The notes beneath the pieces were generated by a model, which was given only the letters and a program-made list of their open reading frames with translations, did no database searches and was not told the DNA's origin. Shown piece by piece: positions 801 through 41,117 of a DNA stretch of 64,000 nt (position 1 is the first letter of the stretch; each line of letters begins with the position of its first letter). This DNA is from Paraspadella gotoi (lineage: Eukaryota; Animalia; Chaetognatha): the NCBI GenBank assembly GCA_051294375.1, contig CM119264.1, positions 15,338,196-15,402,195 of the forward strand, given 5' to 3'. The translations under genes and the position numbers were made by a program.

Positions 801-1040
801 TGTGGAAGACGATGCCGCGGAGCAGTTTACCGTCCGTTGCACACAAGGTCCCGAACTTCGGATCGGGCTGTAGTCCGACACTACAGGTGGGTTAGACGCC
901 CCGTCCCGCTTTTACTTGTGTGAATCAGCAGGGCGCGAACCTGAGTCCTTTGGGTTGGGAGGAGCTCGTGCTACCTCCGGCGCTATAGGTGCTGCTGATT
1001 CTCGGACGAGTAGTGGGGTATGAAATACTACCACTCAGAG
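801..1040 (-). mobile_element. tRNA-derived SINE-like insertion carrying a twister ribozyme
   Basis: 240-bp insertion relative to the paralogous empty site at about 55224-55243 (aagtttgagc|taacaatgcc). Box A-like TAGCGCCGGAGG and box B-like GGTTCGCGCCC. Confidence 0.75.
840..922 (-). ncRNA. Type-P5 twister ribozyme behind a tRNA-like head
   Basis: Minus strand: cacacaag taaaa GCGG GA CGG GGCGTC TAA CCC AC ctgtagt-gtcgg-actacag CCCGA TCCGAAGT TCGGG A c cttgtgtg. T1 CCG/CGG, T2 AC/GT. Predicted cut 894/893. Confidence 0.85.
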
Positions 1041-1432
1041 TAACAATGCCAGAACTGATCAGTTAATAAATTATTCAATCAATTAATCAAATATTCAATC
1101 AATCAATCAAAAAAATTAAGCAATCAATCAATTTGTCATCGTCGGGTATTATCATTGTCGTAGTTGCCATCATTAATTATTTAATTAATTAAACTCCTTT
1201 ATCTTTGTTGTACATTGCAAAAATGTATCTTTATTATTTATCCCTGTTGTTTTGTTTCTCTCTTCTCTCTCTCACTCTCTCTCTCTTCTCTTTAACAAGT
1301 TTCACTTCTTTTCATAGGTTTAAAAATTTTTCTCATAAAGATTTAATGATTTAAGGACAATAAAAAAATGAAAAAAATTATATATATAAATTAAAGATTG
1401 AAGAAAAATAATGATATTACAGTTAGTTTTTC

Positions 1433-2658
1433 AGTTTGAGCAAACAATGTCGGATCTGCCTACGAAAATTAATTAATTAATTTTAATATTTAATAATTAA
1501 TTATAAATTTATATACAGCTTATCATCTTCGATGTCCTTAAAATAAAGTAAATGTGACTTATATTTTTTCCATTTAAACTCATTTCCACTGGCCCAATTC
1601 TGTCAAAACTTCTTCACCAACTTTTTTCCTTCCCGCTCACATCTCACATCTCAATCTATTATGGGTTAAAATAAGTAAAAAGAGTCAAGTAAATGTGACT
1701 CATATTTTTTTCATTTAAACTCCTTTCCACTCGTACCGAAACTTTAAGCTTCATCACACATTTTCCTACCCACACACAAAATTTGAACTAAATCTATCCA
1801 TCCAATTATGATTAATTAGAGTATTAATTGGTTAAAAAAAATAAAAAGATTTTAGTAAATGCGACTTATGTTTTTTCCATTTAAACTCATATCCACTCAC
1901 ACGATTCCGTCGAAACTTTATATCCAGCTTTATCACACATGTTTCCTACCCATACACAAAATTTCATTCCGATCCAACCAGCCAATCACGAGTTATTGGG
2001 GCTTTTTGCTAAGGTGGGATGGATGACAGATTGACTGATTAATTAATTAGTGATTGATTAATTGACTAATTGATTAATTAACTGATTAATTATTTTATTT
2101 ATTAATACATCCTGCATATACATTTAATATAAAAGGAAAAAAAATCAATCAATTAGTGAAACAGGTTTTTTTGTTTTTTTCCATTTAAACTCATTTCCAC
2201 TCAAACGATTCCATCGAAACTTGGTTTCCTGTTCAATCACACACTTTTCTACTCGCATACAAAATTCCAGGTCAATCGCCCCATCCACTCATGAGCAATT
2301 GGTATTCAAATAGTGAAATTTATTTTTTTATTTTTTCCATTTAAACTCATTTCCACTCGGACGATTCCATCGAAACTTCATATACAGCTCATTCACACAC
2401 TTCCCTACCCACACACAAAATTTCATTCCAATTCTCATCCATCCAATCACGAGTAATTGGTGTTTTTGCTAAGGTGGGATTGACGGACGGACAGATGGAC
2501 AGACGGATGGATGGACATTTTTTTTGCATAATTTATCATAATTCGATGTTCTGACATGATATAAGTTAGTGCCCGACAATATTGAGGGGGCAGACCGACG
2601 GACCGACAAAGTGAATTATAGAGTCGGGATCTGCTTATAAGCATATCCGACTAAAAAG
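1433..2658 (-). mobile_element. HINE family 1 copy
   Basis: 3' end at about 1433 and 5' palindrome at 2622-2653. Confidence 0.7.
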
Positions 2659-3587
2659 GCGATCTATAATTTGGAACGCCGACGACGACGACAACGCCGA
2701 CGCCCCTTATGCGCAAAAGTGTTACAATATCGTCGCAAACGCTTAGCGATTGCGACAATAAAAATTATACTTTCATATAATAACTTTTTGCAAGGAATCC
2801 AAATCCAATCTTAAAATTCAAAAATTTGTATTTTGATATTTTAGCTATTATATACTTATTACTATATATAAATTTAGCTCACTGGTGCCCACTAATGTAT
2901 GAAATTAAAAAATTAATTTACTAAAGTATTTTTAATGGTTTTTATTTTCACGTTTTATATGCTAAATTTTAATTTTCTAGAATTTTCACATCATTCTAAT
3001 GCTTATAGGCGGGGTGAACCTAGGCAATGCCCGACTACCAACTTGTATAATTTGGTCAACTGACATAATTTGATAAATCAATCAATCAATCAGAGAGAGA
3101 TAAAGAGAAACTTTTAAAAATTGACCACGATTCCATCGAAACTTCATATCCAGCTCAATCACACACTTCCCTACCCACACAAAAAATTTCATTCCAATCC
3201 ATCCATCCAATCACGAGTAATTGGAGTTTTTTGCTAAGGTGGGACAGACAGACAGTCATCTTTTTTTTTGCATAATCTATCATAATTCGATATTCTGACA
3301 TGATATATGTGAATGCTCGACAAGATTGAGGGGGTGGACCGACGGACCGATAGTGAATTATAGAGTCGGGATCTGCTTATAAGCATATCCGACTAAAAAG
3401 TGACTTACCGACCAAACTATGGGGATGGACCAACAAAGTGGATTATAGAGCCGGAATCTGAGATAGGCAGATCTGGCTAAAAACCTGTAACTATTCATCA
3501 ACCCCCTTACTTCATAAGGCACATAACCACCGTTTTGGGTATCACAAAATTTGTCATATGAAATTGGTTAATTATATAATTACTCAC

Positions 3588-3790
3588 CGTAATTCTTTGA
3601 TGTCTCTATTCCTTTGACGGGTTCCATGCTGGTTTTTTACATTAAAAATCAAATCGATCTCGTCTCTCACGTCTTTAGCCAAAAGTCCATCATCGCTATT
3701 GGACACCAATGCATCAAGGCTTATATCATGGAGACGAGAGTTGGTTAGTCGAGCTGGATGTCCAAGTCGCAAAAGTCGAGGATGTTGAGA
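3588..3790 (-). CDS. IGHMBP2: IGHMBP2 exon 7 (gene continues beyond left edge)
   Basis: SQHPRLLRLGHPARLTNSRLHDISLDALVSNSDDGLLAKDVRDEID...IKELR with conserved RLGHPAR; atcag| acceptor, |gtgagt donor. Confidence 0.93.
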
Positions 3791-3869
3791 CTGATATTTG
3801 ATAAAATTATAAACAAGTTTGAGCAAACAATGTCGGATCTGCCCACGATAATTAAGCAGTAGTCAAATA

Positions 3870-3975: not shown

Positions 3976-3985
3976 ATATTCATAA

Positions 3986-7163: not shown

Positions 7164-7681
7164 CCTTTCTTCCTCTTCCGCCTCTTTTCCTCCCTTCGCC
7201 TTCATTCTCATCGAGCGACGACAGAAGGAGCAAAGGGAGAGTTTTAGTTGTTTTGGGGTCTACTTCAGCTCACAATATAACTTTTTTGCCGATTTTTTGG
7301 ACTAAAATTAACTAAAATTAATCAAAATTTGTTCAAACTTGCTTTTTTCACCTAATAAAAACATATTGCATTTTAACCAGCAGATAAATTTCATTTCCTG
7401 GAAAAAAATTATTTGGACATTTTCAGTCCCCCAGGGGTACAGCCATACAGCTGAGAAGTGGAATATCAAAACTAGCCCCGATAGTTTTTTTTGTATCGCC
7501 AAAAAAAATAAAAAATCCGCCAAAATCGTTCAGTAGTTTTGTGCTCGAAAAATCGAAAGCATATTATTAATATGAAGCCGCCTGAATAGAGAGATACAGC
7601 CTACCGCCCATCAAACGTTCAATAAATTTTAAGTTTTTCAATTTTTCACATAAACAAAATATGTTTCACTATCCTTTTAAC

Positions 7682-7893
7682 CTGGAGGTCCATGTATGAC
7701 AGCTACATCCGGTCGACAGAGGGCGAAAGCCACGGCATCTTTTTGACTGGCATCTAAACTTGGGTTGAACCAAACAATGGAATTATTTTCATTATCAGAT
7801 AATTCCGAGGTAAAAAGAGCAGGCAAATCCCGAAGTGGAGCTGGATTGGATTGTTTAAAAAGGACCCTAATCAGTTCTTCCGCTGGACCACGC
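7682..7893 (-). CDS. IGHMBP2: IGHMBP2 exon 5
   Basis: RGPAEELIRVLF...FNPSLDASQKDAVAFALCRPDVAVIHGPPG, the first half of the Walker A motif; tgcag| acceptor, |gttaaa donor. Confidence 0.95.
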
Positions 7894-8575: not shown

Positions 8576-8850
8576 GGGGTAGTGCAGGGTAATTCGGAAC
8601 GGGGGTAACACTGACATATAAAAAAAAAATTTATACAATATTTTTTATATGACTCTCCCAAATTATAATTACAGCAATCCATTGCTGCAGCAGCAGCTGC
8701 AGCATCAATTTTAAAACAGTTTGTCAAATTTCGTCTTGGAGTAATCGTCTTCAAGCCTCTGCCATTTGTAATTATATAAAGTTAGGATTATGAAATTGTA
8801 ATACATGATAGAAGAAACACCCAAATATTAAGTAATGTCAAGATTATTTT

Positions 8851-9793
8851 TAAACAAGTTTGAGCAAACTATGTCGGATCTGCCTACGATAATTAAGTGG
8901 TAATAAGCTAACTTGGTCAACTTGCATAATTTGGTCAACCGACATAATTTGGTCAACCGACATAATTTGGTCAACTGGCATAATTTGGTCAACTTTCAGA
9001 ATTCGGTCAACTTTCAGAATTCGGTCAACTGGCATATTTTTGTCAATTGGCATAATTTGGTCAATCAATCAATCAGAGAGAGAGAAACTTTAAAAAATTC
9101 AAATGTGTCTTTTGGTTTTCTAATTTGAACTTTTTTCCACTCCTACGATTCCATCAAAAAATGTATATCCAGCTTTATCACATACTTTCCTACCCACACA
9201 AAATTCAATTTCAATTTATCTATCCAATTTTTAATAAACATAATAATTATGAGTAAATTTAAGTAAAAATACTTCAAGTAAATATGACTTTTGTTTTTTT
9301 CCATTTTAACTCATTTCCACTCGCACGATTCCATCGAAACTTTATATCCAGCTCAATCACACACTTTCCTACCATCATACAAAATTTAAAGTCAATTGCC
9401 TTATCCACTCGTGAGCAATTGGCGTTTAAATAGTGAAATAGATTTTTTTGTTTTTTCCATTTAAACCAATTTCCTTTCGCACGATTCCATCGAAACTTCA
9501 TATCCAGCTCAATCACACACTTCCCTAATCACACACAAAATTTCATTCCAATCCATCCATCCAATCACGAGTAATTAGTCTTTTATGCTAAGGTGGGACA
9601 GACGGATAATTTTTTTTGGATAATTTATCATTGTGATTAAACTTTCTTTCGTTGTGTTTGGGTTATTTGAAATTAAAGACGAAATCTTTTACATCAACGA
9701 TTTATCATAATTAGATATTCTGACAAGATTGAGGCGGACCGACGGACCGACAAAGTAAGTCGGGATCTGCTGATAAGAAAATCCGACTAAAAA
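8851..9793 (-). mobile_element. HINE family 1 copy with 18-bp minisatellite
   Basis: Both ends present; (gttgaccaaattatgcca)n-like array at 8912-9065. Confidence 0.75.
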
Positions 9794-10254: not shown

Positions 10255-10496
10255 CTATTAAGTTAAAAATAATTTTTAGATTAATACATAAGAAAATACC
10301 GCCACATTGTAGAAATTTAATTTCAAACTTTTCTAATTAGAAAACAATGAAACGAAAGGAATATATTACAATTCTTTTTAAAAAATTATTTCATTTAGTC
10401 AAAAATATAAAAAACTATTTAAAATAACGATTTTTAATTTCCAGTTTAATTTTAACCTACTTAATAATTTGGTGGACTAAAATCCACCAACCGTTT

Positions 10497-10558
10497 ATCA
10501 GCGGCCATTGGTGCCGGAGGTAAGTCATTCACCTCCCAACCCAAAGGTCCAGGTTTCT
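10497..10558 (+). mobile_element. Truncated tRNA-like SINE head related to the 801-1040 element
   Basis: atcagcggcc...gccggaggta...cctcccaacccaaagg.ccaggtt aligns with the minus strand of about 935-999. Confidence 0.6.
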
Positions 10559-11580: not shown

Positions 11581-12977
11581 TAGGAAGCCGTTATAGAAAA
11601 AGAAGCCAGTGACTTTTTTCTTATATTTTTATATCGATAGAAGTGGAATGACGGGAATATTGTAAATCTCAAGTTTCGCTTTAATCGGACCTCACATTGT
11701 GGAGAAATCTTAGGAAACCAATCAAAATTCCAACCCTTTTTTCCAACATTCTCGCCTTTTAAGATTTTCGCCGATTCTGATTTCCTCTTACAAACTTATA
11801 ATTCCGCTAGTTAATTTTTTTTTCTTAAACGAGTGAAGGGAATCCACAACTTTCTGTTATTTTATGATTTCTGGGTAAAAAATATAATAAATTACATTAA
11901 CATTGGGATATTATGAAAGTATAATGTCTTGTGAAGCCTGTGAGAGTTAAATAATTAAAAAATTCGCCTATTTTATTATTGAAAAAATAACAGTAAAGTA
12001 AAGAAGTTGAATGTCTTCCGGCTCATTTCAGTAAACATCCCTGTTCTCTAGCATAAAATAATGTTTACTTTTTGCTGGTGGAAAAGAAAGATAAATACTT
12101 AGGCTGTGATGGGGTGAATAATATTTTGTAGAATTTTGTAAGCATGCTTGTAAAATCAGACAAGCAAATATTTAAGTGACAAAAAATTCACATTTTCTTT
12201 ATGCAAAAAACTTTAAAGTTTTACTAGAGTACAATTTAGCCTTTTTTCTTTAAGAATCATTAAAAAGAATTAAATTTTCATTTATTCTTATGGGGTATCA
12301 TTAGTTTTAAAAATTCATTATAATTTTGACTTAGTTTGACACTCACCCTGTAAGGAGGTTTCAGCATAAGTAATTCTAAAATTGTATCTTGTATGTACCC
12401 TATGATTATGGCTTCATTTTGGTACTATTACCATCCCTTTATCTTTATTCCTTCAAAAGATATTAGGAAAAATCAGTTTTTTTCTCAACCTTCCTTTTAA
12501 TTTATTTTTAAATAAAAATTTCGCGATTCAAACCGGACTATTTCATTTAAACCTGATCATTTTATGTCAAAATCATTATAAAATGAAAAAAGAAAAATAG
12601 GACAAGCTCTTCAGACACAAAGCTATCAGAATCGCGAAATTCGAAGTCGCTCATGTAACAGGAACATATAGCAATCCCGTTTGCAATTTTAAGTTTGTAA
12701 ACTTTCCCTTTCATTTCTATAGCAAAAATGAGGTTTGAAAATTCTCCGGAGATAAGTAGTGCATTTCCCCTGGCTTGTTTGATATTAAATCCTTTATCAA
12801 ATGCCATAAAACGAATAGGACAAGCTCTTCAGATGCAACGCTCTCGGAATCGTGCGTTTTTACAAGTTTTTTTAACCGAATTTCTGGCAAACGCGTTTGC
12901 AATTTGGGTAGTCAGATTTGAACGGAATTCTCTATTAGAAAAATGTTGAATTTTTTTTAAGCGAGATTCTTCGTCTA
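11581..12977 (+). mobile_element. 1.4-kb non-autonomous DNA transposon with 7-bp TSD (hATw-like)
   Basis: TAG...CTA ends, TSD actatag; near-identical copies at 43968-45361 and 60890-61893. Confidence 0.85.
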
Positions 12978-13182
12978 ACTATAGACAAATTAAGCTGCTT
13001 GTTTACTATATTCATATAAAAATAATTATAGATAAGTATTCACTAATATAAATATGATAGTTTTTAAGATATAACTGCTAAGTTTTGATTCCAAACTGTC
13101 CTAAGTCGGGGGAAAGTAAGCTTATTAAATGAATGGATAATTTTTTATATTGGTTGTACCAATTTCATACACTCAAACTCAC

Positions 13183-13271
13183 CATCTCCCTCTCGATCGA
13201 ACGCGACGGTTAGAGAAGAACAAGTTAGATTCGAAACAACCCCTGAAGCGATTCCATTTGATCCTCCGATG
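13183..13271 (-). CDS. IGHMBP2: IGHMBP2 exon 3
   Basis: Follows a 76-nt intron; IGGSNGIASGVVSNLTCSSLTVAFDREGD; |gtgagt donor. Confidence 0.88.
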
Positions 13272-13347
13272 CTAATAATAGTGAATGTTTTATAAAACCA
13301 AACCAATTTTCTACTTTATAGCGACTTTTCTTTTAAACAACACGTAC

Positions 13348-13462
13348 GTGAGAGATTGAGAAAGTTCCAATCCAACGATATCTCCCTGAGACAAGCTGTG
13401 CGAGGGCAAAATATTTTCCTTCCAACGCCTTTCCAAGGTTATTAAGATGCGACCGTTTAATC
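13348..13462 (-). CDS. IGHMBP2: IGHMBP2 exon 2
   Basis: tttag| acceptor; GLNGRILITLERRWKENILPSHSLSQGDIVGL; |gtacgt donor; phases join exons 1 and 3. Confidence 0.9.
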
Positions 13463-13658
13463 CTAAAGTAAAAACAAAAAACAGTAATTACGTGATACGC
13501 CGCATTGACTTAGTATTTTTGATCATTGATTAATGTGGCATTTTAAAACAATTGAACTACCTAACAACCCTAGCACAGGGTTATCCATTAAGGTGTGATA
13601 TATGTAGTCGGGCATTGCCTAGGTTCACCCCGCCTATAAGCATGACACCTTCAGTCCT

Positions 13659-13830
13659 GACCCGGTGGCTCATTGAGTAAAGCCATCAGCTCATGACCAC
13701 GAGGTACCGGGTTCAATCCCAACCTGGTACCTACCCTGCGGGAAGCGTGAGGACGGCCGTAAGCCGCCTTGGGGGCGTGGCAACCCCTCAAGCCTGGTTC
13801 CAATCCCAGGACCCGTTCCATGGCTACTAA
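13659..13830 (+). mobile_element. tRNA-derived SINE-like element carrying a twister ribozyme
   Basis: Box A-like TGGCTCATTGAG and box B GGTTCAATCCC, anticodon-like loop ctCATga, followed by the twister. Confidence 0.75.
13738..13816 (+). ncRNA. Type-P5 twister ribozyme behind a tRNA-like head (one T2 mutation)
   Basis: gcggg aa GCGT GA GGA CGGCCG TAA GCC GC [P3] CCTGG TTCCAATC CCAGG A cccgt. T1 TCC/GGA pairs; the L4 G is T in this copy. Confidence 0.8.
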
Positions 13831-14319
13831 AGGGGGTTATAGAAGTTACGGATAGTCATCTTCAGCCCACTTAGCGCCTTATCCACATATACAAAACTTA
13901 ACCCTAGTTTAGTGTTAAGCCAAGCATTAATACCCTGTCTTAAGGGTTAGGGTTGAGGGGAGATGACCTCTCACTTCTTTAACTCCCTCTAGCAACCATG
14001 GAATAGGTCCTGGGCTTGGAGGTCCTATCATATTAACATGTGATTTTATAAATACAGGGAGATCAAGCTCTAATGGGACTAACTAATTGTTTACAGCACT
14101 GATGGAAAAAAAAAACCTTTTTGGAAACTAAGCTAATTTTTCTTTCGATCGATATCAAAAACGTCTGGAAAATCCAACAGCAACTACTGTAATAAAAGCT
14201 TTTTGTATAACATCAACATGTCTTATTTTTTCACGCCGTTCCCTTAAAAAATTTAGCAAAAATCAAAATGAAAGATGATGACTCCTGACATTTGACCACG
14301 CAGTTTTTGTGACTGAAAT

Positions 14320-15347
14320 CTGGGTTGGCAAAAATCTGGGTTGGCAAAAACCTGGGTTTTTTTGGTTTTTTTTTGGGTTTTATTGGGTTTTTTTAAATTA
14401 TAGATAGCAGACTGTCATATTAATTCAAAATATTTATACTTCTTAAGTGATTACTGATAAAAATATATAAAAATATACTGAATATATTTAATAATAGTAT
14501 TAATTAATATTTTTTATGGTAAACAGAAATGTAATAAATATAAATAATATATTTTCTGAATAAAACCTGTTATGAAAAAAGTGTATAAACTTAATTTTAT
14601 TAGAAAATAATAATTAAATACTCAAAATAATTTGATATAAATATGCATCATAAACATTTATATAAATTACTAATACATTGAAAATTGAAGTACATCTTTA
14701 GTACATGTTTTTGCCGAATTAACTTGTCTTTTGGGCTAAAAATAAATTTTGATGTTTGGATAAAATATTTGAGTTAATTTAATAAAATATTAAGGTGTTT
14801 AATTAGGCTAAGATTTTTTCCTGACGTCAATATATTATTTTCCCGCATTCTCGTTACTTTACTCCTGGTTAGGATACCTTTTCAGAGAATTCTTTAATGT
14901 GTGACAAATAGTCAAATATATAATTATATTGAAGTTTAATTTTTTCTGATAAATAGCTTTAAAAAAACCCTAACCTTGTGTTAAATAATAACGAGAGAAT
15001 AGCAATCATTTTTAATGTGTCGCTTTTTACATAATTTGCGATTCATGATTAGGATTACTTAATATAAGGAAAATGGTACAGAAGCCAGCAACGAAAGTGA
15101 TACTGATATTAAACATGTAAAACTTAGGTTTAAGATAATTTTTTATCATTAAATCATATATTAAGCTTTGTAAAAATTATATATCTTATATGATTTAAAT
15201 TTTTGCTTTAACAATTTAATGTTTCATATTAAAAAATTAATTAATTTTAAAAAAACCCAAAAAAAACCACTTTTTAGTAGGTTTTTTTGGTTTTTTTTAA
15301 CTGGGGTTTTTTGTTTTTTTTGGGTGGGTTTTTTAATGCCAACCCTG
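14320..15347. mobile_element. hAT-like MITE
   Basis: TIR c(t/a)gggttggca, 8-bp TSD actgaaat, subterminal gggtttttt motifs. Confidence 0.85.
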
Positions 15348-15515
15348 ACTGAAATACCCTTGAAATACCCTTGATTAATTAATCTTTTCATACAATTGAA
15401 ACATTCTTTGAAATATTATACCACTTCATTGATAGGGAAGCCAGGTTCACTGGGAGTGAATAAACAAGTCTGTGAGAGAGGCTTGATTAAAAGCTTGCAG
15501 AAACCTGTTATGTTA

Positions 15516-15580
15516 TTATCTTGCAAGTGTGATGGAGGCCTTAAACCACCAAAGCCTGTCCAAAGTCAGGGACAAGATAG
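15516..15580 (+). ncRNA. Type-P5 twister ribozyme, intact-looking
   Basis: P5 ttatcttg/caagatag; P2' GTGT; GA; T1' TGG; AGGCCT; UAA; P2 ACC; T2 AC; P3 cAAAg; P4 CCTG/CAGG; L4 TCCAAAGT. Both pseudoknots pair. Predicted cut 15542/15543. Confidence 0.85.
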
Positions 15581-15990
15581 CTTATTTATTAAATGGATGG
15601 ATAATTTTTATATTGGTTGTACCAATTTCATTGTAAGATAGAGAAGCAGAATGTATCACGCATCCTTTCCATAACTGTGAACTTCCTGACAGCGCCAAAA
15701 GTGGCTGGAATGGCAGCATTCCTAACGGGCGCGGTCGCAAAAGCATATGCTGACTTCTCTGAACATTTTGAGAAGGTTACCGAAGGTCAATTATTTTAAT
15801 AGATTATATTCTCTTAACATTTTTTTACATATATACTAATTTTCATATCATTTTTGTTATATTTACCCATCAAACATTTTTTTAAATTTAGTCCCAAAAA
15901 AGCTGGACCTCCCTGTATAAAATAATAAGCTTATTTAGTGAAAACAAAAGTTTATTTTGTTATTTTTACAACAATTTTTTAATGATAATA

Positions 15991-16040
15991 AAGACGGCCA
16001 TGTTTCGACTCTTAGGGGTTTGAGTCTTTATCAGCGTTAT
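15991..16040 (-). ncRNA. Degenerate copy of the minimal hammerhead
   Basis: ataacg CTGATAA a GACTC aaacccctaa GAGTC GAAAC ATGGC cgtc; core G>A and GUC>GGC; flank homologous to 47805-47850. Confidence 0.7.
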
Positions 16041-17692
16041 AGGCTCCACGTACGATCGATGTCTTTTAGACAACGAAATCTGAACTTCAATAATTACCAT
16101 CTTTCTTGATCTCATTAGTTAGTATGAAGCTTACTTCATTTAAAAAAACGGTAGTCTCAAGTTATCTCCTTATCACTTAGAACTTCCCAGGTAAATTTCT
16201 ATGAATTAAAAACACGGTAAGACATGGTTTCTTCAATGATTGTTTATCTAATCTCATTTTAGATATAAGTATGTTCAAATTTTTATGGTATAGATAATTT
16301 TTAAAGATCGAATTCCTCATAAGAATCTTCACGTCTTTTACTTACATAAGTTTTTAGGTAAGATGCCACATTATCTGATACAATTTTTTTTTCTTAATTC
16401 GCTTTCCCTGATTCTTTTTCTTCACTTCTTTTCTTCTCTTTCTTTATATTTTCCACTTCCTCTTTCCTCGCTTACTTCTCACTCTGTCACTTACCATTTT
16501 TCGGCCCCTACTTTTTCTTGCCACTCATGCACTTTCCTTACCTTTTTTCTCTCCTTCTCTCTTTCTCTTTCTTTTCCCCTCTTTTTCTTTCCAATTTTCC
16601 CTCATTTCCTACCTTTTATTTGTCTCACTATTTTTCCCCCCATTTGCCTATTTTTTTTTGCCTTTGGCCCCCTCTTTCATTTTCTTCCCTTCTCTTTTTC
16701 TTGTTTTCTCTTTCCTCTTCCCTCTCACAACGTTTACATTGAGCCATATCAAAGAAAATCTTTAATATGCATTATAAGAAAGAAAATGAACGGTAGCGCA
16801 GATTTTTCTGTTTCAAATTTTGGTTGCCTAGCAAATTTAGTAAATTGACAGATTTTCCGCAAAATCTGTCGATTCTGAGAAAAAAAGTCCTGACGCTTTC
16901 CATTGGCTTAAAAGGATGCGGTTTTTTTTGTTTTATCAACGTCAGTAAGTACCCCATCTTTTAAAACTAATAAAAGAGTTGAAAATATTTTCTTTAGCAT
17001 AAATAATTGCAAGTCACAAAAAGTCACAAATTAAAAGTTGTCTTTAAAAATTATTTGTGGCTAAACGAAAAGAGTTTTTTTGATAATTTTGTAGGTGTTA
17101 AAAGCTTATTCTGTGGACTATATTTTCTGTTAATTTAAGCCAATTTAAACTATTTTTGTTTAATAAATTATAATAAAAACTAAAACTGCGACTTTTTGAC
17201 TTGTCAACTTTAAAATTAATTCATAAGTGAACTATGAATGATATAAGGAAAATATTTTACTCAAGGGTGAAGAAGATAAGGAAGAAAAGAATTCCAAAAT
17301 AAAAAAATTTTCTCAACTTTCCTTGGCATTCAAATTTGAAGACGAAAGTGAAAATGGACAAAAATGGACATGATTTTTTTCCCTAAAAGTTGCAAAAATG
17401 TTACTCTTATATGATTAGAAATAGCTGGAGATGGTTTTAACCAATCCGTATTTTGGCCTAATTTATATTATGGTGCAAATTAAATTAATTTTGTTAATAG
17501 TAACTGAACAATACTGGAAAAAGTAGTTTTTTCTCTGAATGCGAGGATCGTAAGCAGAGGCTATAACAACGAAGAGAGAGAAACTTACACAAAATAATAA
17601 TCATAAAATATCTGGTATGCGTAAAAAAAAATAAAATGAATTAGATCAAGACCCCGACGTTTCTTCCAAATTATCCATTCGCTTATTATTAC

Positions 17693-17873
17693 CAGTTCTG
17701 CGAGACGAGATACATAAGCCAATAAGCGCCACGCCCTTTCTTTCTAAATCCTTGGGCGACCCGCGGGAGAGTAGACGGCGGGACTGTTCAACTTCCGCCT
17801 CTTGCTCTAATTTTAGTAACGACAAATGTTTGGCTACGAAATCTTCAACAAAGTTCATTGTAAATTGTTGCAT
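17693..17873 (-). CDS. IGHMBP2: IGHMBP2/SMUBP-2 (Upf1-like SF1 helicase) exon 1
   Basis: MQQFTMNFVEDFVAKHLSLLKLEQEAEVEQSRRLL...GVALIGLCISSRRTG resembles the IGHMBP2 N-terminus (recalled as [22 protein letters not shown]...VSSQRTG). GT donor at 17692-17691, phase 1. The second ATG at 17858 is a plausible true start. Confidence 0.9.
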
Positions 17874-17883
17874 ATAAATAAGG

Positions 17884-25331: not shown

Positions 25332-25399
25332 TTTTACTTTGATATTTATTTCCATATTTTTATTTTTAAATGTTGACCAATTACCATACAATTACCATA

Positions 25400-27609
25400 C
25401 AATTCTTCTGCTTGAAGACCCCTATGCAGAATTTTCTCTCCTCCGCTCCTGCCTCTCTTCCTAAACTCTCCTACGCCCTGCGCGCCACACCACCTTCCTT
25501 TATAAAGCCTTCTCTACAACGCTTTGATGGGATCATGCGCGAGGCCCTAGTGGGATCTCGCCTGGACGACCTCCAATGGCGCCAAGTTTTCTCTTCCCGT
25601 TTCGATGGGAGGGATGGGCGTCAGAGGAGCCTCAGCCCATGCCCCCGGAGCCTTCCTCGTCTCCACTCGTTCTACTCGTGCTCTTGTTGAGTCTATTATC
25701 CCTCTCCTGTGATCCTTGACTCTGCCAGAGCCCTTCAGACTTTGAATTCCCTCGTTACCTCCCCCTTTGATGAAGACCTCGGCGATGCAACTCAAAAGAT
25801 TTTTTTTTCTGAAATAAAAGAGACAATTTGACAGTTAAGACGATAAAAAGATAAAACGATTTTAAACAATTTGACATTCAAACAATAAAAGAGTATTGAG
25901 CAAGACTAATTGCACTGATGGCACTAAAAATAAAAAGATAATTTTATAAAAAATTGTCAGACACGCGATCGACCTACATCTTCAGCAACATTTGGTGGTC
26001 GACCTCTCTTCTGAAAGAGACATTGCGCGTCTTAAATCTTTGGCTTGGCCACATGCTGGAGATTGGCTCAACCCGGCCCCTTCTCGCCCCCTGGGACTTC
26101 ATCTACACTAGAGTGATGTGAAAATGATAAATTTTTAGAAAATTAAAGTTTAGCATATAAAACATGAACATAAAATCCAATAAAAATATTTTGGTAAATT
26201 TATTTTTTAATTTTATACATTAGTGGGTACCAGTGAGCTATATTTATAATAATAATTATTATTATTATTATTATAATAGTAATAAGTATATAATAGGCTA
26301 AAATTTCAAAATACAAATTTTTAAATTTTAAGATCGGATTTGGATTCCTTGCAAAAAGTTATTATAAGAAAGTACAATTCCTTTTTTAAAAATTATTTCA
26401 TTAAGTTAGTCAAAAATGTAAAAAACTATATTTAAGACGCCGATTTTAAATTTCCAGCTAAAAATATAGTTTTTTGTAGTTTTAACCTACTTAATGACAT
26501 AATTTTTGAAAAAGATTTATACTTTCTTTTATTAACTTTTAACGAGGAATCTGAATCTGTTCTCAGAATTAAAAAAAAACCATTTTGAAATTTTGACATT
26601 ATATAAGGGTAGTACTATATACAAAATAAGCTGACTGGGCTACTATATTTATTAAAAAAAAAAAATAATTACAGATTAGTATTCACTAATTCTAATATGA
26701 TAGTTTTCAAGATATAACTGCTAAATTTTGATTCCAAACTTTCACTTCACCCTAATCTACACCCACTAGAATTTCCAGTGGCAGCCCAATACCGTCTCGG
26801 CCTCCGTTTTCAGCATGGCTGGACCCTGCCCTGCTTGTGGTGCCGATAGCGATACCCTCGGTGATCATGCTGTATCTTGCGCAAACGATGGAGAAAGGAT
26901 CTCGTGTCACAACAAACTTCGGGATGCCCTTCACAAGGACGCAGCACGCGCCGCTCTTGCTCCCACTAAGGAAGCTCAAGCCCTCCTGCCTAGCAGGACT
27001 GCACGCCCCGCTGATATTTACATCCAAAACTGGATAGAAGGGAAGGACGCCGCCTTGGATGTGACCGTTGCAAACTCCCTCCTCTCATCCATCATCCACA
27101 GGGCTGCGGAATATCCAGGTTCGGCGTTGGAAACCGCCCGTGGGAAGGAAAATGGCTGTCCTTCGAAGCTTGCCGCGCCGAGGGGATCATTTTCGTCCCC
27201 CTTCCAGCCGAGACACTCGGAGCTTGGGACGCCGATGCAGCCCTCCACATTTCGTAAAATTTGTCTGGCACTGGCAAGGCAAACCGGACGCGAAGGGGGT
27301 GAAACAATCCGTCATCTCTTCCAGCGCCTCGGAATTGTATTGATGAAGGGAAACGCCGCCCTCCTTCTCAACCGCAATCCCTCTCACCCGACTCCAGATG
27401 TTGATGCATCGATGGCGACGTCGATCACGAATGACTCCTGAAATGACTCATTAATTCTCCATCTCAACATCTGTTAGAATCTTTCTGTGATAGTCCATTC
27501 CTGTGATTCCTGTGATTCTTCGTATTTTGTTTTATATTTTGATGCCCTTTTGGATGACCAGTCTACCTCATTTATTTTGTTGTCTCTTTTTCTTTCCAGG
27601 AAAAAAAAA
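25400..27609 (+). pseudogene. Second, divergent CRE-like retrotransposon remnant, interrupted
   Basis: LPKLSYALR, GDWL, CPAC..D.LGDHAVSC, RPADIYI, ALDVTV, LFQRLGIVLMKGNA. Split by a hAT MITE at 26109-26754; A-tail near 27601-27609. Confidence 0.85.
26109..26754 (+). mobile_element. hAT-like MITE family B inside the CRE ORF
   Basis: 8-bp TSD atctacac. Confidence 0.9.
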
Positions 27610-29158: not shown

Positions 29159-31634
29159 AGACTTCTTGATGTTCATGCTTTGCGGCCCAAGGCGTTCAAT
29201 GTGTCACTCGTCGAGAAAGGGTTCTGACAAGTCTTGAGTAATATATTACGTATATTGGTCGTAAAAAATTGTGGCAATAATTGTGACAAAAACAGTAGCG
29301 AAAACGCTTAAAAACATTTTCCAACAAGAGACGTTCAAAAGGTTCATTAACGACTGAAAAGCAAGTGACAAAAATTTGGAAAAGTAGATTTAATAATTGC
29401 CCGTCGTCAAAAACTGGCCGAGATAGAGAAGAAAAAAATATGACCAACGACAATTCTCTTTCACACTCTCTCTCTCTCTCTACATCTTAGACTTATTTTT
29501 TCAGCCCTGATTTTCTATTGTCATTTATGATTCATGAATATTAAGGAATAAATGAGTGTTTGATTAATTACATACATGATTTTTGGACTATTGATTTAGT
29601 GATTGATTTATCTATCAATAGATTGATTGGTTGATTGAGTGATTGATCCATCTATCAATTGATCAAATGATTGACTTATTGGTTCTTTTACTGATTGATT
29701 GATAGTTTATACAAATGATGTTTTGCGTTTTTTATTTTTTTCCTTCATTATTTTTTTTTCTTCATTCATTTTCATTTGAAAGAGAGAGAGAGAGAAGAGA
29801 GGAGGTGGAGAGAAAAGAGAACATGAAAGAGTAAAATGAGATACTCTGGTTAATCCTAAAACTTGTCTCCGAGATAGTCTGGTTAAACTCATTATTAGCT
29901 TGGACAGGGAAATACTTGGTCGTGACATGGGGTAGTACACTGTAGGTACTTTATCCATATGTTCTAATTACATACAACCAGTTCGCCGGAGAGGCCCAAT
30001 ATAAAATATAGCATTCATACTTCATACTTCATCTAAATGTTCTAATTACTTTTTTTTTCTGAAAAGAAAACAGCAAACAAATAATTGCGGGAATGGTTGC
30101 AAAAATATCTTATGTCAACAATAAACATAAACAAAAAAGATAAAAAAGAAAAAGAGATCAGGGGACAAAGTCAAGCAACTCCGTCCACATGAGACGGCAA
30201 CTCAATCACGGGACTTCGGGAAGCAAGCAGGTTCCCATTCTCGCACTGAAGGCAGACAGAAAGTCTCTCAAAAAAGTTCTTAGACGTTTTGCCGATATCT
30301 AAGCCTGCATTCGTTGCTTGAAGTTTGGCAAAGTCTTTTAGGTTTAAGAAAGCATCCAGGTCCCATGCCCCAAAGGTAGTGACAACCAAAGGATATGAAG
30401 CCAAGTCGGCCGGCAGTTTGCCTTCATACTTAGCATGTTTGGCCTGACGAGCTCGTTCCAGGGCATATGTGGGGTTGACTAACTTACAACCAGTTGGCCC
30501 ATTTTAAAATATAGCGTTCATCAAGGATGTCTTCTGCCCTCGCTCTCTCAACACATCGTAACTTTAACCTTTTTACATTATTCATCTATTTTTTTAAAAA
30601 AAATCGATTTTTTCAAAAATTTACTTTCTCCTTAAAGATTTAATAGTAAAAGTTTTCCGATTGATCTGAAACTTAAAGAGCTTTAATTTGAATGAAAATA
30701 TTACCTATCTTTAAAATATTAATGAGATATGATTGTACAGTTTTTTATTGGGTTTAAAAAGGTGTATTTTTTTCTCTTTTTGACAATTTCAAAATGCCAT
30801 ATCTCGGCCTTGGATGATCTAATTTACAAAATATTTATATATTTAGAATCCTTGTCTTAATCTCTTTTTATAATAATAAAAAAATTTGAAACTTTGATAA
30901 AGTATTAATAAAAACCTTTTTTAAAGTAATATCTTAAAAATAATATCAATTTGAAAATAAAGTTAAAAAATTCTCCAAAACAAGCTTAAGTTAAAGCTTA
31001 TACTATGTAATTGTTAAGCACTTAAAACAATAAAAAAATACTTACGTAGTAAGGATAAATTTAGTAAAGTAGAAAATCTTATAATATGTAAATGAGATTT
31101 AGGCTTATTTTAATTTAAATTTTTTAGACCACCAGCAGATAAAGTAATGCTTTGGCTATTTTATGGTTAAAAAATCAATCCAGTTCTCTGTATATTTTAG
31201 GTATAAATGACAATTGAATTTTGTTTCTAAAATTTTTGACCAAAAAATGACCCGAAACTCATATATGTTGTAGAGCTACCAAAGCTCATCTAAGACTATA
31301 ATATAAAATCATAATATTCACTAATATAATAGTATACTGATTTAAAAAAATGACACATCTTAAAATATTTCCCCTAGTAAATGCTAAAACTTTTCAAATT
31401 TTATTCTATATCTGACAAACATCTCACAAACCCTTTTAGATGTATATGTAAAATTTTAAAATTGTACTACATAAAATGTCCAAGTTATGCCAACAAATTT
31501 TTGGTGTAAGTGGTTTAGATATGCGATTTAAATTTTAACCCAATGGGCGATTCATAATCATATGTAAAAACAGACGCAAAAATATAAGAATTATTTGATC
31601 CCAGGAAAAAGGACACTCTACGCTTCGGGTACTA
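27645..31634. mobile_element. Long-TIR foldback DNA element (Tc1/mariner-like, TA-flanked) with nested insertions
   Basis: Outer IR gtac.cgaagcgtagagtgtcctttt; inner ~400-bp IR 27812-28230 vs 30590-31010. Confidence 0.75.
30049..30480 (-). pseudogene. 5'-truncated CRE-like retrotransposon 3' end
   Basis: KHAKY...YPLVVTTFGAW...FFERLSVCLQCENG...HVDG*, then a T-rich 3'UTR ending TTTTCAG(A)n. Confidence 0.82.
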
Positions 31635-36872: not shown

Positions 36873-36903
<31 letters not shown>

Positions 36904-38309: not shown

Positions 38310-38330
38310 GTAAAAGTTTAAACATTTTAA

Positions 38331-39405
38331 GGCATTCCTGGAGATCAATGCCCTCTGGAGGCCTATGGGAAAACAAAGAGCAAGGTTTTTCTTAAAGAAT
38401 TAACGGGAAAAAAGAAGAACGAAATAGAAATAGAAATAGAACGTTAGAGGATAACGTTTCGGGGAAAAAAATAAAGGAATTCAGATATAATTTTTTTTAA
38501 TATTTTTTATTTTTGTTATATGAAATTGGTACAACCAATATATATTTGGGTAAAAATTAAGGTTAAAATAAATTATGGTTAAGAATAAATTAAGAATAAG
38601 TGTAAGTTAACTAGAAAAATAAATTAAGGTTAAAAATAAGTTAGGGGTAAGTTAGGGTTAGAGGTAAGTTAGGGTTAGAGGTAAGTTAGGGTTAGGGGTA
38701 AGTTAGGGTTAGGGGTAAGTTAGGGTTAGGGGTAAGTTAGGGTTAGGGGTAAGTTAGGGTTAGGGGTAAGTTAGGGTTAGGGGTAAGTTAGGGTTAGGGG
38801 TAAGTTAGGGTTAGGGGTAAATTAGGGGTAGAGGAAAGTTTGGATTAAGGGTTAATTATGGGTAAATTAAAGTTAAATTTAAGTTTTGGCTTAAGTATAC
38901 AATAATTTAATATTTTAAAAAAAAATATTTAAATATTAATATAAATTTAATAAAAATAAATATATTATATAATATTTACATTTTTATTTATGATTACAAT
39001 GGTCATTTAATAATTCAGAGAGAGAGAGAGATATCAAGGTTAAAATTGCCTATCTCTCTATCTCTCAAAGTTAGTATCCAAATATTTATTAAAAATATTA
39101 AAACTGGTTGATGAAGGTTCAAAAAACAAGAACCAAAACATATCCTAATTATTAAATGATCGTGGTTATCACAAATAAAAACTGTTATTTTGTAAATATC
39201 TATCAAAGGCAATTAAAAAAATATTATAATTAATTTTTTGAAAGAAAAAGAAATCCTTAGCTCGTGAAGCTTAAAAACGTGTTTAATATCATTGTTGTTA
39301 CGGTCTTAAATTTTTTTTTCCGTAAAGAAACGAACTTCATTTTTTCCTCTTCTTTCTCTTCCTTTTCCCATAAGCCTCCAGAGCGAATTCAACTCCGGGA
39401 TCGCC
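38331..39405. mobile_element. Merlin-like MITE with internal telomere-like array
   Basis: GG...CC ends, ~44-bp imperfect TIRs, 8-bp TSD cattttaa, internal (TTAGGGTTAGGGGTAAG)n at about 38641-38830. Confidence 0.8.
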
Positions 39406-40851
39406 CATTTTAAAAATGTTATTCAATTCATGGTAAAATTGTCAATAACTGTTTACGATATTCCCGGTCGGTGATTTAGGGGTAGTTTAGGGTTAGGGAA
39501 ATTAAGTAATTTTTTTTTATTTATTTTTTTTTAAATAAGAATTTTTAAGTGGTTAAGCTTTCAATCAAGTTTCTCACACAGTCTAATTTTTCTACTTCCT
39601 GAGTACCATGCTTTCTTATCAATGAAGTGATATAATACTTTAAAAAATGTTTCAATTGTATGAGATCGCGAAATATTTTATTGTACTCTGCACTAGTATC
39701 AAAATATATATATCTTGAAATTAGTTCATTAGTATTATTTATTTATTTTATTTATTTGCTAATTTGTACCATTTTGATTGTATGCAAATTTAGAAGTTTC
39801 TTTATTCTTTATACATATAAAATATAAGTGGGAAGGAGGCCTTAACCCGCCGTAGCTATCAAAACAACTAAAAAGGTAAAGATAGTAAAATATGAGATTT
39901 GGGAATTAAGGGAATCAGTGTTAGGTGACGGTGTATACTAAATTTTTCTAGTAAATCTTTTTATCGTCGCAATCGCTTAGCGTTTGCGACGATATTGTAT
40001 CGCTTTTGCCCATAAGTAGGGGGAGACTAACTCAGTAAGGTGGTTAAGAAATTGCATTAAGCACCTGCTCAAACGAAAATTTAGACATTTTTAAAAAAAT
40101 CTTTTTTTACCTAAAAGTAGACTTCAAGAATAAAGTTTTGAACCCCCGCCCCTATTGAATTTAATTTCATAGTAGATTTCTACCATAAGTGGCGTCGTCG
40201 TTGTCGTCGGCGTTCTAAATTATAGATCGCCTTTTTTATGATTAAATTTAGGTGTATGAAGCTGAAAATTTATATACAGCTTCTCATCATCGATGTGCTT
40301 AAAATTGGGTCAGGACAGTTATTAAATATGTTTTGTTTACATTTTATTAAAACAAACAAATTTTCTCTTTTATTTTTATATTTCTTTCTCTCTCTCTCTT
40401 CTCTTTTAATTACATGTCTCTGTCCCTCTCTTTTTTCCCTAGTCACTGATTCATAGGGGAAAAAACGAGTCTGCAGCTGGCTCTGCAGGGGATTATTCTT
40501 TTTCTCTCTTTTCTGCTGCTGCCTTTTGATTTCTTTTTTTTCTGGGTGCTTCTTCTGCTGCCGCTGCTGATTCGTCTGAAAACGATTTGGCTTCTCTCTC
40601 TCTTTTTTTCTCTGGGGCTGTGTCTGCTGATCAGTTTATTTTTTTCCTTTCTATTCTTTCTTTCCTTTCTATTCTTTCTTTATATTTATTCTTTTCTTCT
40701 TTTTCTTTCTGTTTATAAATTTTTTTTTCTCAAATTTGATTTTTTTAGTATCAAAATTTGTCATCAATCCAGATTTTTCTTATGCGATTTTGACGATCCT
40801 TATGCTTTTGAGATTTTTTAACAATTCATCGATTCATTTTTTTCCTTCTAG

Positions 40852-40942
40852 GTACGTCTTTGCGTTTCTTCTGACATCTCGTCTTCATATTCCGCCCAAT
40901 GAACTTTTAGAAAAAGTGGCGTCGATTTGCGCTAATCAGCAG
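40852..40942 (+). CDS. RASGEF1: RASGEF1-family exon (REM)
   Basis: YVFAFLLTSRLHIPPNELLEKVASICANQQ; tctag| acceptor, |gtacaa donor. Confidence 0.92.
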
Positions 40943-41039
40943 GTACAAAAGATCCTACTGTGGCGGTATATTCATTTCAGTCAATCCAATGGCTCCCAAC
41001 CCAACCGTGCATTTTAACCTCAGTCCTAACGAGTTTCCT

Positions 41040-41117
41040 CTGTTGGCAAAGTGAGACCGTTCTAGGGTAACTGCGCCAGTGGCGCTACTGAGGGTTGGAA
41101 GCCCCTAAAGCCAACAG
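41040..41117 (+). ncRNA. Type-P5 twister ribozyme (weak P2)
   Basis: ctgttggc aaa GTGA GA CCG TTCTAGGG TAA CTGC GC cagtggcgctactg AGGG TTGGAAGC CCCT aaa gccaacag. T1 TGG/CCG, T2 GC/GC. Confidence 0.75.

What the first reader, a model, noticed from the sequence alone, without database searches (positions are those of the whole stretch)
840..41117. Dispersed type-P5 twister ribozymes whose P1 is a loop-less palindrome (candidate dimer-dependent twister retroelement system)
Seen: four full motifs (840-922 minus; 13738-13816, 15516-15580 and 41040-41117 plus) and partial ones (39828-39850, 13096-13110, 13989-14020 minus). All share the order P5-A-rich linker-P2'-GA-T1'-X-UAA-P2-T2-P3-P4-U(T1)AAG(C/U)-P4'-P5. 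Stems differ in sequence but keep pairing: T1 CCG/CGG, TCC/GGA, CCA/TGG, TGG/CCG; T2 AC/GT or GC/GC; P4 CCCGA/TCGGG, CCTGG/CCAGG, CCTG/CAGG, AGGG/CCCT. Four copies have a 3-bp P2 with the same bulged pyrimidine. X, where P1 belongs, is always self-complementary with no loop: GGCGTC, CGGCCG, AGGCCT (twice), TTCTAGGG. Established: this matches the twister consensus (U-A cleavage site, catalytic G of GA, two pseudoknots), and minimal hammerheads with palindromic stem III cleave as dimers. Inference: P1 forms between two molecules or tandem copies, and the density here implies a very large genome-wide family. I know of no description of this architecture but cannot check the literature.
Basis: partly seen in the sequence, partly recalled or inferred. 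Interest (0 to 1): 0.95.

Follow-up and report, generated by a model that had tools for sequence, protein, structure and literature searches.

The report
Palindrome-armed twister ribozymes in jumping repeats
Several families of short, very abundant repeats in this animal genome carry the fold of the self-cutting twister RNA with its first helix replaced by a loop-less palindrome, so two copies likely pair to cut out an RNA that Naiad-type jumping genes would then copy; cutting is untested.

Summary
Observation confirmed with two corrections. Four complete type-P5 twister-like motifs and one half motif are present. Both pseudoknots and P4 differ in sequence but keep pairing. In all five the P1 slot is a 6-8 nt self-complementary word that cannot fold as a stable hairpin. 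Two copies are damaged (13804; P2 of the 41 kb copy). The motifs lie in non-coding elements of about 240-285 bp. Two families stand about 10^4-fold above flank depth, with sharp ends and many different flanks. Two have tRNA-like heads. The same fold, again with loop-less palindromes in the P1 slot, lies unremarked in 5 of 14 published Naiad retroelement 3' ends that I read (PMC8557442, File S5); that paper reports Naiads lack hammerheads. Best reading: non-autonomous, retrozyme-like elements mobilised by Naiad-type Penelope-like elements, with P1 formed between two copies. Main doubt: P1 is dispensable in tested twisters, so monomers may cut. No tandem copy or Naiad ORF lies in the window, and no RNA evidence was obtained. 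This scan already noted the Naiad-twister-palindrome link on other DNA; my nine paper searches did not find it in print.

The parts
802..1040 (-). Element C, about 239 bp: 5' hairpin (1040-1001), tRNA-like head (1001-922), twister-like motif, 3' end TCCAC(A)
   Evidence: An empty-site paralogue at 55253-55194 minus gives both ends; 0-1 nt target duplication at TA. Folds.
840..922 (-). Twister-like motif C; X=GGCGTC 900-895; predicted cut between U894 and A893
13603..13887 (+). Element A, 285 bp: 40-nt 5' hairpin (13604-13643), tRNA-like head with box A-like 13666-13677 and box B 13710-13720, twister-like motif, 3' end TCCACA; flanks read as a short TA run
   Evidence: Sharp ends with unrelated flanks in 107/90/89 contigs (5' end) and 62/73 contigs (3' end); depth about 10^4 times flank. 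Boxes by pattern and by eye; box consensus recalled.
13738..13816 (+). Twister-like motif A; X=CGGCCG 13754-13759; predicted cut 13760/13761; T2 broken in this copy at 13804
15383..15631 (+). Element B, 249 bp of a unit of about 280 bp; AT-rich, no tRNA-like head seen; 3' hairpin 15609-15631
   Evidence: Depth 2.7e5-1.25e6 in X1 against about 50 in the lowest nearby bins; 3' end in 292/148/190/50 contigs; one head-to-tail joint 15635 to 15386 with 30 letters between
15516..15580 (+). Twister-like motif B; X=AGGCCT 15536-15541; predicted cut 15542/15543
   Evidence: Rfam Twister-P5 25.6 bits, below gathering, aligned with a zero-length P1 loop
41040..41117 (+). Twister-like motif D; X=TTCTAGGG 41060-41067; predicted cut 41068/41069; C.A mismatch in P2; element ends not defined
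39826..39850 (+). Half motif E (P2', GA, T1', X=AGGCCT, UAA, P2, T2); no P4/L4 follows
13091..13169 (+). 5'-truncated B-like copy (L4 to 3' hairpin)
   Evidence: 83% identical to B over 84 columns
13958..14020 (-). A-like 3' fragment (L4, P4', P5 arm and tail), no cleavage site
   Evidence: 79% identical to A over 63 columns
39555..39665 (-). B-like 5' fragment that stops before the ribozyme
   Evidence: 80% identical over 109 columns
2996..3038 (-). Solo copy of A's 40-nt terminal hairpin
   Evidence: 40 of 40 identical
38520..38542 (-). Solo copy of B's 23-nt terminal hairpin in a TA-rich flank
   Evidence: 23 of 23 identical
10491..10558 (+). C-like tRNA-like head fragment without ribozyme
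   Evidence: nhmmer E 2.4e-4

Best explanation
These are short non-coding repeats, at least two families of them very abundant, each carrying a type-P5 twister fold whose P1 slot is a loop-less palindrome, and they are likely non-autonomous retroelements whose ribozymes pair two at a time through that palindrome and that would be copied by Naiad-type Penelope-like elements. SHOWN: the fold, covariation of T1, T2 and P4, self-complementary X in 5 of 5 motifs, sharp element ends, high copy number of A and B, a 5'-truncated copy, one empty site without target duplication, and the same fold with loop-less palindromes in five published Naiad 3' ends. INFERRED mechanism: a source locus with two or more units is transcribed (Pol III-like boxes in A and C, no T4 run in either). 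X of one unit pairs with X of the next, giving a shared 6-8 bp P1 with an active site at each end. Both U/A bonds are cut and a unit-length RNA with 5'-OH and cyclic-phosphate ends is released. P5, P2 and T1 hold the ends together, so it can be closed to a circle and used as template by a Naiad RT/GIY-YIG protein, which inserts at TA sites. Lone copies and single-ribozyme circles would cut slowly, sparing host pre-mRNA and keeping circles closed. My odds for the steps: active twister in intact family members 0.9; intermolecular P1 forms and is selected 0.75; pairing needed for efficient cutting 0.45; Naiad-type mobilisation 0.7.
For: Fold and covariation. Family base at 13804 restores T2. X as a cis hairpin costs +4.1 to +5.6 kcal/mol, while X:X duplexes give -5.4 to -10.7. 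The inner four letters of X, which a cis tetraloop would leave free, are self-complementary in 4 of 4 families: p about 4e-4 (uniform) to 2e-3 (X's own composition); letter-permutation product 0.0036; all assume independent families. No second cis partner for X within 300 nt for A or C. Published Naiad consensi read by eye (PMC8557442 File S5): Mgal, Bpla and Mphi have the same bulged 3-bp P2 and T2 AC/GT; Scon and Mmer have a 4-bp P2. All five have a palindrome directly after T1' with a different centre each (TAGCTA, GGCGCC, ATGCAT, AGCGCT, TGCGCA) and a second (near-)palindrome before YAA, with a compensatory change in Bpla. [quoted passage not shown] Element A sits in a TA run, C inserted at TA without duplication, and the 23-40 nt terminal hairpins of A and B also occur alone. 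Precedent: the axolotl hammerhead with 1 bp plus a palindromic tetraloop cuts 6% as monomer and much better in dimeric constructs (PMC7229834).
Against: P1 is dispensable: mini-twisters cut at almost wild-type rate (PMC5408937) and P1 length or defects did not affect cleavage in a screen of 1948 type-P1 twisters (PMC11662667), so monomers may cut. All copies in the window are solitary; tandem arrangement rests on one contig joint for B among the rows shown. No Naiad or other Penelope-like ORF was recognised among the 141 frames scanned with Pfam, and no genome was held to look for a partner. The Naiad motifs have two palindromes, the window's motifs one. 9 of the 14 Naiad ends read show no such motif in the stretch seen. 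B has one alternative cis partner for X (AGGCTT at 15479, 5 Watson-Crick pairs plus 1 G-U). C's and D's duplexes are weak and G-U rich. Rfam scores are below gathering. No Rfam tRNA hit supports the heads.
Confidence: 0.5

Rival explanations
1. Same elements and an active twister, but it cuts as a monomer with X as a flexible 6-8 nt linker or a 1-2 bp stem. The palindrome is kept for another RNA-RNA pairing (template pairing or switching during reverse transcription, packaging), or only speeds cutting.
For: P1 is dispensable and its defects are tolerated. Natural P1-poor twisters are active in Schistosoma (PMC8501958, abstract and part 3). Copies in the window are solitary. Bivalve Naiads have two palindromes, more than one P1 needs.
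Against: The palindrome sits exactly in the P1 slot in 5 of 5 window motifs. In a P5 permutation the two P1 strands are tethered, unlike the open-ended mini-twister. The hammerhead precedent with the same 6-nt geometry is dimer-stimulated.
Confidence: 0.3
2. The motifs are 5'-truncated 3' ends or solo pseudo-LTRs of autonomous Naiad elements rather than non-autonomous families with a cycle of their own.
For: The motif lies near the 3' end of autonomous Naiads. 5' truncation is seen (13091-13169). The ends of D and E are undefined.
Against: A has a fixed 5' end with unrelated flanks in 107/90/89 contigs. B's upstream loose ends match the letters that follow its own 3' end, which gives a unit of about 280 bp. 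C is delimited by an empty site. A and C have tRNA-like heads.
Confidence: 0.12
3. tRNA-headed SINE-like elements that took a Naiad 3' end only as a recognition signal; the ribozyme is an inactive passenger.
For: Copies A and D are damaged. No RNA evidence was obtained. Scores are below Rfam gathering.
Against: T1, T2, P4 and X differ between families yet keep pairing. The family base repairs T2. None of the 40 best-supported differences shown falls in GA, T1, X or UAA of A or B (290 further rows were not shown).
Confidence: 0.08

Closest known systems
Type-P5 twister ribozyme (Rfam RF02684, clan CL00120; reviewed in PMC5408937, passages read; Roth et al. 2014 not read)
   Same: Strand order, GA and UAA of L1, L4 U-NNN-AA-GY, T1, T2, P2, P4 and ends in P5. 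The P3 arms of C and D resemble the Rfam P1-type consensus.
   Different: No P1 hairpin: a 6-8 nt palindrome without loop. P2 is 3 bp with a bulged pyrimidine in 4 of 5 motifs. Below the gathering score. Cleavage untested.
Metazoan non-LTR retrozymes, especially axolotl HHR_Amex1 repeats (PMC7229834, passages and Discussion; bioRxiv 10.64898/2026.07.22.740005, parts 1-2 of 5 and passages)
   Same: Non-coding units of 170-400 nt with a self-cleaving motif, very high copy number, presumed Penelope-like mobiliser, and a 1-bp stem plus palindromic tetraloop that works better as a dimer.
   Different: Twister instead of type I hammerhead. Mostly solitary copies here; tandem evidence is one joint. 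tRNA-like heads in two families. RNA circles not shown.
Naiad Penelope-like elements (Craig et al. 2021, PMC8557442; passages, File S1 and parts of File S5 read)
   Same: A P5 twister-like fold with loop-less palindromes lies in 5 of 14 consensus 3' ends read, 3 with the same P2 bulge. TA-rich targets and short terminal extensions.
   Different: No GIY-YIG/RT ORF, 240-285 bp against 3.4-4.4 kb, one palindrome against two. The paper names no twister (0 hits in the supplement text held; no paper with both 'Naiad' and 'twister').
Twister variants at the 5' end of Schistosoma Perere-3 (PMC8501958; abstract, parts 1 and 3 of 9)
   Same: Twister in an animal retroelement with weak or absent P1.
   Different: P1-type, at the 5' end of an autonomous RTE element, with P1 partly from the target duplication; no palindrome or dimer in the parts read.
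Schistosoma SM-alpha SINE-like repeats (recalled, not read)
   Same: tRNA-type promoter boxes followed by a self-cleaving ribozyme in a short repeat.
   Different: Hammerhead, not twister.

Membership tests
Type-P5 twister ribozyme (RF02684) | Order P5-P2'-GA-T1'-P1-UAA-P2-T2-(P3)-P4-L4-P4'-P5 | tested here: met
   4 of 4 full motifs
Type-P5 twister ribozyme (RF02684) | Two pseudoknots T1 and T2 | tested here: met
   T1 3 of 3 pairs in 4 of 4 copies; T2 2 of 2 in B, C, D; 1 of 2 in copy A, 2 of 2 with the family base
Type-P5 twister ribozyme (RF02684) | Conserved catalytic G of GA, U-A of UAA and L4 U..AA | tested here: met
   Present in 4 of 4 full motifs
Type-P5 twister ribozyme (RF02684) | P1 as an intramolecular stem closed by a loop | tested here: not met
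   At most 1-2 bp plus tetraloop, +4.1 to +5.6 kcal/mol; Rfam aligns B with a zero-length loop
Type-P5 twister ribozyme (RF02684) | Rfam gathering score 37.6 bits | tested here: not met
   25.6 (B), 13.4 (A), none for C; D hits only twister-P1 at 15.4
Type-P5 twister ribozyme (RF02684) | Self-cleavage at U/A | not testable with these tools
   Needs an in vitro assay
Metazoan non-LTR retrozyme | Type I hammerhead in each unit | tested here: not met
   No hammerhead hit at E up to 10 in the window or in local scans
Metazoan non-LTR retrozyme | Short non-coding unit, high copy number | tested here: met
   239-285 bp; frames over A, B and C gave no Pfam hit; depth about 10^4 times flank for A and B
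Metazoan non-LTR retrozyme | Head-to-tail tandem copies | tested here: inconclusive
   None in the window; one joint 15635 to 15386 for B in run X1 among the rows shown
Metazoan non-LTR retrozyme | Expressed as linear and circular monomer RNA | not testable with these tools
   No run on record as RNA was listed
Naiad Penelope-like element (autonomous) | ORF with N-terminal GIY-YIG, CxC linker and RT | tested here: not met
   The elements are too short; no such Pfam hit among 141 frames of the window
Naiad-dependent non-autonomous element | TA-rich targets, no clear target duplication, 30-40 bp terminal extension | tested here: inconclusive
   A in a TA run; C at TA with 0-1 nt duplication; solo 40-nt and 23-nt terminal hairpins; the 3038 copy and B's 3' flank are not in TA runs
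Naiad-dependent non-autonomous element | 3' similarity to an autonomous Naiad of the same genome | not testable with these tools
   No genome held; only the cross-species motif likeness
tRNA-derived SINE | tRNA-derived head with boxes A and B | tested here: inconclusive
   Box B pattern 15-30 nt before the ribozyme in A and C (6 pattern hits on both strands of the window); C has a 10-bp acceptor-like stem and T-arm; no ARAGORN or Rfam tRNA hit; not seen in B
tRNA-derived SINE | A-rich or simple-repeat tail and target-site duplication | tested here: not met
   A and C end in TCCAC(A); C has a 0-1 nt duplication

The most novel reading that the evidence does not exclude
An obligate-dimer twister ribozyme: two motifs share one palindromic P1 and cut in concert, so only tandem source transcripts are processed, while lone genomic copies and RNA circles stay uncut. 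It is the ribozyme that a part of the Naiad clade uses in place of the hammerhead, and it drives an undescribed class of twister retrozymes, some with tRNA-derived promoters, at about 10^4 copies per family.
Probability: 0.35. Interest if true: 0.85.

Novelty: new variant of a known kind. Interest (0 to 1): 0.7.

Why it matters
It would be a natural dimeric twister, the counterpart of the dimeric minimal hammerheads, reached by an unrelated ribozyme in the same group of retroelements. That convergence would argue that Penelope-like elements need paired, tandem-dependent cleavage rather than carry ribozymes as passengers. It answers a stated gap (Naiads 'lack canonical hammerheads', PMC8557442) with a cheap test. 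It also suggests that Rfam thresholds and descriptors requiring a P1 hairpin miss very many eukaryotic twisters. A ribozyme that cuts only when paired would be useful for making stable circular RNA.

Tried and rejected
No genome was held, so there is no genome-wide census or covariation test. Searches for homologues in public collections found none: viral contigs gave 110 loci from 18 of 64 parts, 0 of 110 passing the descriptor, and 0 matches for two tighter patterns; metagenomes gave 6 loci, 0 of 6 passing; prokaryotic genomes gave 23 loci, with one AT-rich descriptor hit away from the pattern judged chance, 22 pattern matches re-read and none with a P4 and P5 to go with its T1. These patterns were narrow (AAGT or AAGC start, bulged P2). 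No RNA holder was listed; run X9 is only guessed to be RNA, so it is not used for expression. Summed contig depth is not a copy number; it is used only as an order of magnitude, beside counts of distinct junction contigs. X1 may be the source of the window. The family consensus of D and the low-frequency variation inside X remain unknown. My first descriptor had a bug and missed the motifs; the loose version did not beat shuffles. MAFFT did not align the copies in register, so no covariance model was built. Single-strand folding recovers P3, P4 and P5 for A and C but gives other folds for B and part of D, as expected without pseudoknots. The animal's phylum was not established. The RT fragments at 23.6-27.4 kb and 30.2-30.5 kb look like another non-LTR type (CRE-like by recalled motifs) and were not taken as the partner. 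Papers: searches found no description of a palindromic or dimeric twister, or of a twister in Naiads; the library holds only open-licence PMC and bioRxiv text. Lunse et al. 2017 was not held, Roth et al. 2014 was not read, and bioRxiv supplements were closed, so a mention there cannot be excluded. In the Craig supplement (held text marked as cut) I searched short exact words, which miss variants and line breaks, and read only 14 of 54 Naiad 3' ends, 11 of them over the last 600-700 letters only.


Full report
1. Observation. The window is AT-rich animal-like DNA (most 2-kb bins 25-36% GC) with many repeats. It holds exons of a SMUBP-2/IGHMBP2 helicase gene on the minus strand: 17649-17915 (Pfam PF21138, E 2e-10), 7680-7889 (weak AAA_11), and about 5640-5500 and 3770 (recalled motifs). 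Pairings: T1 TCC/GGA (A), CCA/TGG (B), CCG/CGG (C), TGG/CCG (D); T2 AC/GT (B, C), GC/GC (D), GC/TC (this copy of A); P4 4-5 bp; P5 5-8 bp; P3 8, 1, 7 and 6 bp. P2 is three pairs with a bulged pyrimidine in A, B, C and the half motif E. D has four positions with a C.A mismatch. X, in the P1 slot, is CGGCCG, AGGCCT (B and E), GGCGTC and TTCTAGGG.

2. Chance. A 25-letter pattern with X free matched 4 times against 0.03 expected. A descriptor blind to X's letters found exactly the four full motifs; 1405 dinucleotide shuffles gave a mean of 0.009 and a maximum of 1, and none of the 12 chance hits had a self-complementary X. Both were tuned after seeing the copies. The loose descriptor gave 8 hits against 2-10 in 20 shuffles. 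Rfam sees the class only below threshold: Twister-P5 25.6 bits for B (aligned with a P1 loop of length zero) and 13.4 for A, twister-P1 15.4 for D, nothing for C.

3. The palindrome. As a cis hairpin X gives 1-2 bp plus a tetraloop at +4.1 to +5.6 kcal/mol; as an X:X duplex it gives -10.7 (A), -9.1 (B), -6.3 (C) and -5.4 (D). A cis hairpin would leave the inner four letters free, yet they are self-complementary in 4 of 4 families. The probability is about 4e-4 to 2e-3 by composition, and 0.0036 by permuting each X's own letters, assuming independent families, which is only partly true. No other partner for X lies within 300 nt for A or C. B has one inside the element (15479) and four G-U-rich words outside it; D has one AT-rich word 155 nt upstream.

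4. The elements. Logan contigs of four runs from three studies were laid on 12800-16200. Over A, summed depth is 4.4-4.7e5 in X1 against 47-61 in the three bins before it, about 3.0e5 against 9-12 in X5, and 2.8e5 against 14-19 in X6. Over B it is 2.7e5-1.25e6 in X1. The tool warns that this is not a copy number, and X1 may be the window's source, so I take it as an order of 10^4. Junction counts are firmer: 107, 90 and 89 contigs begin at 13603 and 62 and 73 end at 13887, with flank agreement of only 0.38-0.40; 292, 148, 190 and 50 contigs end at 15631. So A is a discrete 285-bp element. At 13804 G is read in over 99% of depth in 4 of 4 runs, which restores T2. None of the 40 differences shown falls in GA, T1, X or UAA; 290 further rows were not shown. 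One joint leads from 15635 back to 15386 through 30 letters that match B's upstream loose ends, giving a head-to-tail unit of about 280 bp. C is bounded by an empty-site paralogue at 55253-55194 and inserted at TA with 0-1 nt duplication. A and C both end in TCCAC(A), begin with a hairpin of about 40 nt, carry a box B-like word shortly before the ribozyme and have no T4 run. C's head folds with a 10-bp acceptor-like stem and a T-arm. ARAGORN and Rfam do not call these heads tRNA. The terminal hairpins of A and B also occur alone (2996-3038; 38520-38542), and a 5'-truncated B copy lies at 13091-13169. A and B are antisense in a helicase intron. C is on the sense strand downstream of the last exon found; whether it is still intronic was not shown.

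5. The Naiad link. Earlier notes of this scan (AI notes, used as leads) pointed to twister-like folds in Naiad elements on other DNA. I checked this against the published consensi of Craig et al. 2021 (PMC8557442; text passages, File S1, File S5 part 22 whole, passages). [quoted passage not shown] Of 14 3' ends read by eye (54 are listed), five hold a P5 twister-like fold: Mgal, Bpla and Mphi with the same AAG-Y-GN-GA...YAA-NCC-AC bulged P2 as here, and Scon and Mmer with a 4-bp P2. T1 has 3 pairs in two of them and 2 pairs plus U.U in three; Mgal and Bpla have C in place of U before the cut. In all five the P1 slot starts with an 8-12 nt palindrome with a different centre each time and ends with a second 8-9 nt (near-)palindrome, with a compensatory change in Bpla. 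The 10-12 nt palindromes could also close in cis, but their would-be loops are self-complementary in every case. The other nine ends (Olur, Tgra, Pmar, Mcor, three Darwinula, Ppla, EuTe; names from file order) showed no such motif in the stretch seen. No Naiad ORF was recognised in the window (141 frames), and no genome was held, so the partner in this genome is inferred.

6. Mechanism. Shown: fold, covariation, palindrome, element limits, abundance and the cross-species Naiad motif. Inferred: transcription of tandem source loci, a P1 shared between two ribozymes, paired cleavage, release and circularisation of a unit RNA, and copying by a Naiad protein. This follows the cycle proposed for hammerhead retrozymes (PMC7229834, passages and Discussion; bioRxiv 10.64898/2026.07.22.740005, parts 1-2 of 5 and passages). 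There the axolotl hammerhead with one base pair and a palindromic tetraloop cuts 6% as a monomer and much better in dimeric constructs. Dimer dependence would also keep single-ribozyme circles closed, a problem that paper leaves open; this rationale is mine. Against it: twisters without P1 cut at almost wild-type rate (PMC5408937, passages), P1 and P2 defects were tolerated across 1948 natural type-P1 twisters (PMC11662667, passages), and P1-poor natural variants are active in Schistosoma (PMC8501958, abstract and parts 1 and 3 of 9). Those data support activity despite the P2 bulge but weaken 'dimer-dependent'. All window copies are solitary.

7. Known and new. It works like a type-P5 twister but fails two membership features (cis P1, gathering score), so I call it a twister-like variant. 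It behaves like a non-LTR retrozyme but has no hammerhead. It is not an autonomous Naiad. Nine searches found no paper on a palindromic or dimeric twister or on twisters in Naiads. A 2019 review (PMC6765202, passages) gives the palindrome-dimer case only for hammerheads, and a 2023 permutation search (PMC10085705, passages) found no further twister forms. Subscription papers and closed supplements were not seen. Within this scan the Naiad-twister-palindrome idea was already noted on other genomes. What this window adds is short non-coding families with a single 6-8 nt palindrome, sharp ends and tRNA-like heads.

8. Verdict. Real feature; new variant of known kinds; interest 0.7. One in vitro experiment with monomer, tandem and trans-complemented constructs would decide the dimer question.

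Noticed in passing
PMC8557442 File S5, 3' ends of the records before Naiad_Tgra, Naiad_Pmar and Naiad_Mcor: These three bivalve Naiad ends share a different conserved motif (GGGTG, then a 9-10 nt loop-less palindrome that differs in each, then CAG...GATGCTTAC...GCACC). A second palindrome-bearing RNA fold may sit at the same place in other Naiads.
   Followed up: no
window 17649-17915, 7680-7889, about 5640-5500 and about 3770, minus strand: Exons of a SMUBP-2/IGHMBP2 helicase gene. Elements A and B lie antisense in one intron; C is on the sense strand downstream of the last exon found.
   Followed up: partly
window 23607-25690 (+), 26770-27441 (+), 30171-30503 (-): Broken fragments of non-LTR retroelements (weak RVT_1 hit; CRE-like C-terminal motifs by recall); the nearest Atlas clusters are unnamed.
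   Followed up: partly
window 49.2-51.2 kb and 19.4-19.9 kb: Satellite-like arrays built on TTAGGG/CCCTAA words. A 23-26 nt word of the 49-51 kb unit also follows the A-like fragment at about 13943-13965.
   Followed up: no
window 13574-13667: The 5' flank and the start of element A form an imperfect inverted repeat of 94 nt (62%).
   Followed up: no
window 13603-14020: Element A and a 79%-identical 3' fragment of a relative lie tail to tail about 70 nt apart.
   Followed up: partly
window 40944-41020 and 10491-10558: The words AATCAGCAG and CTCCCAACCCAA of C's tRNA-like head recur upstream of motif D, and a C-like head fragment lies at 10.5 kb, so D may have a decayed head of the same origin.
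   Followed up: partly
window 8834-8917 and six other places (family D16): A dispersed repeat with a conserved core of about 35 nt in otherwise divergent flanks; not examined.
   Followed up: no
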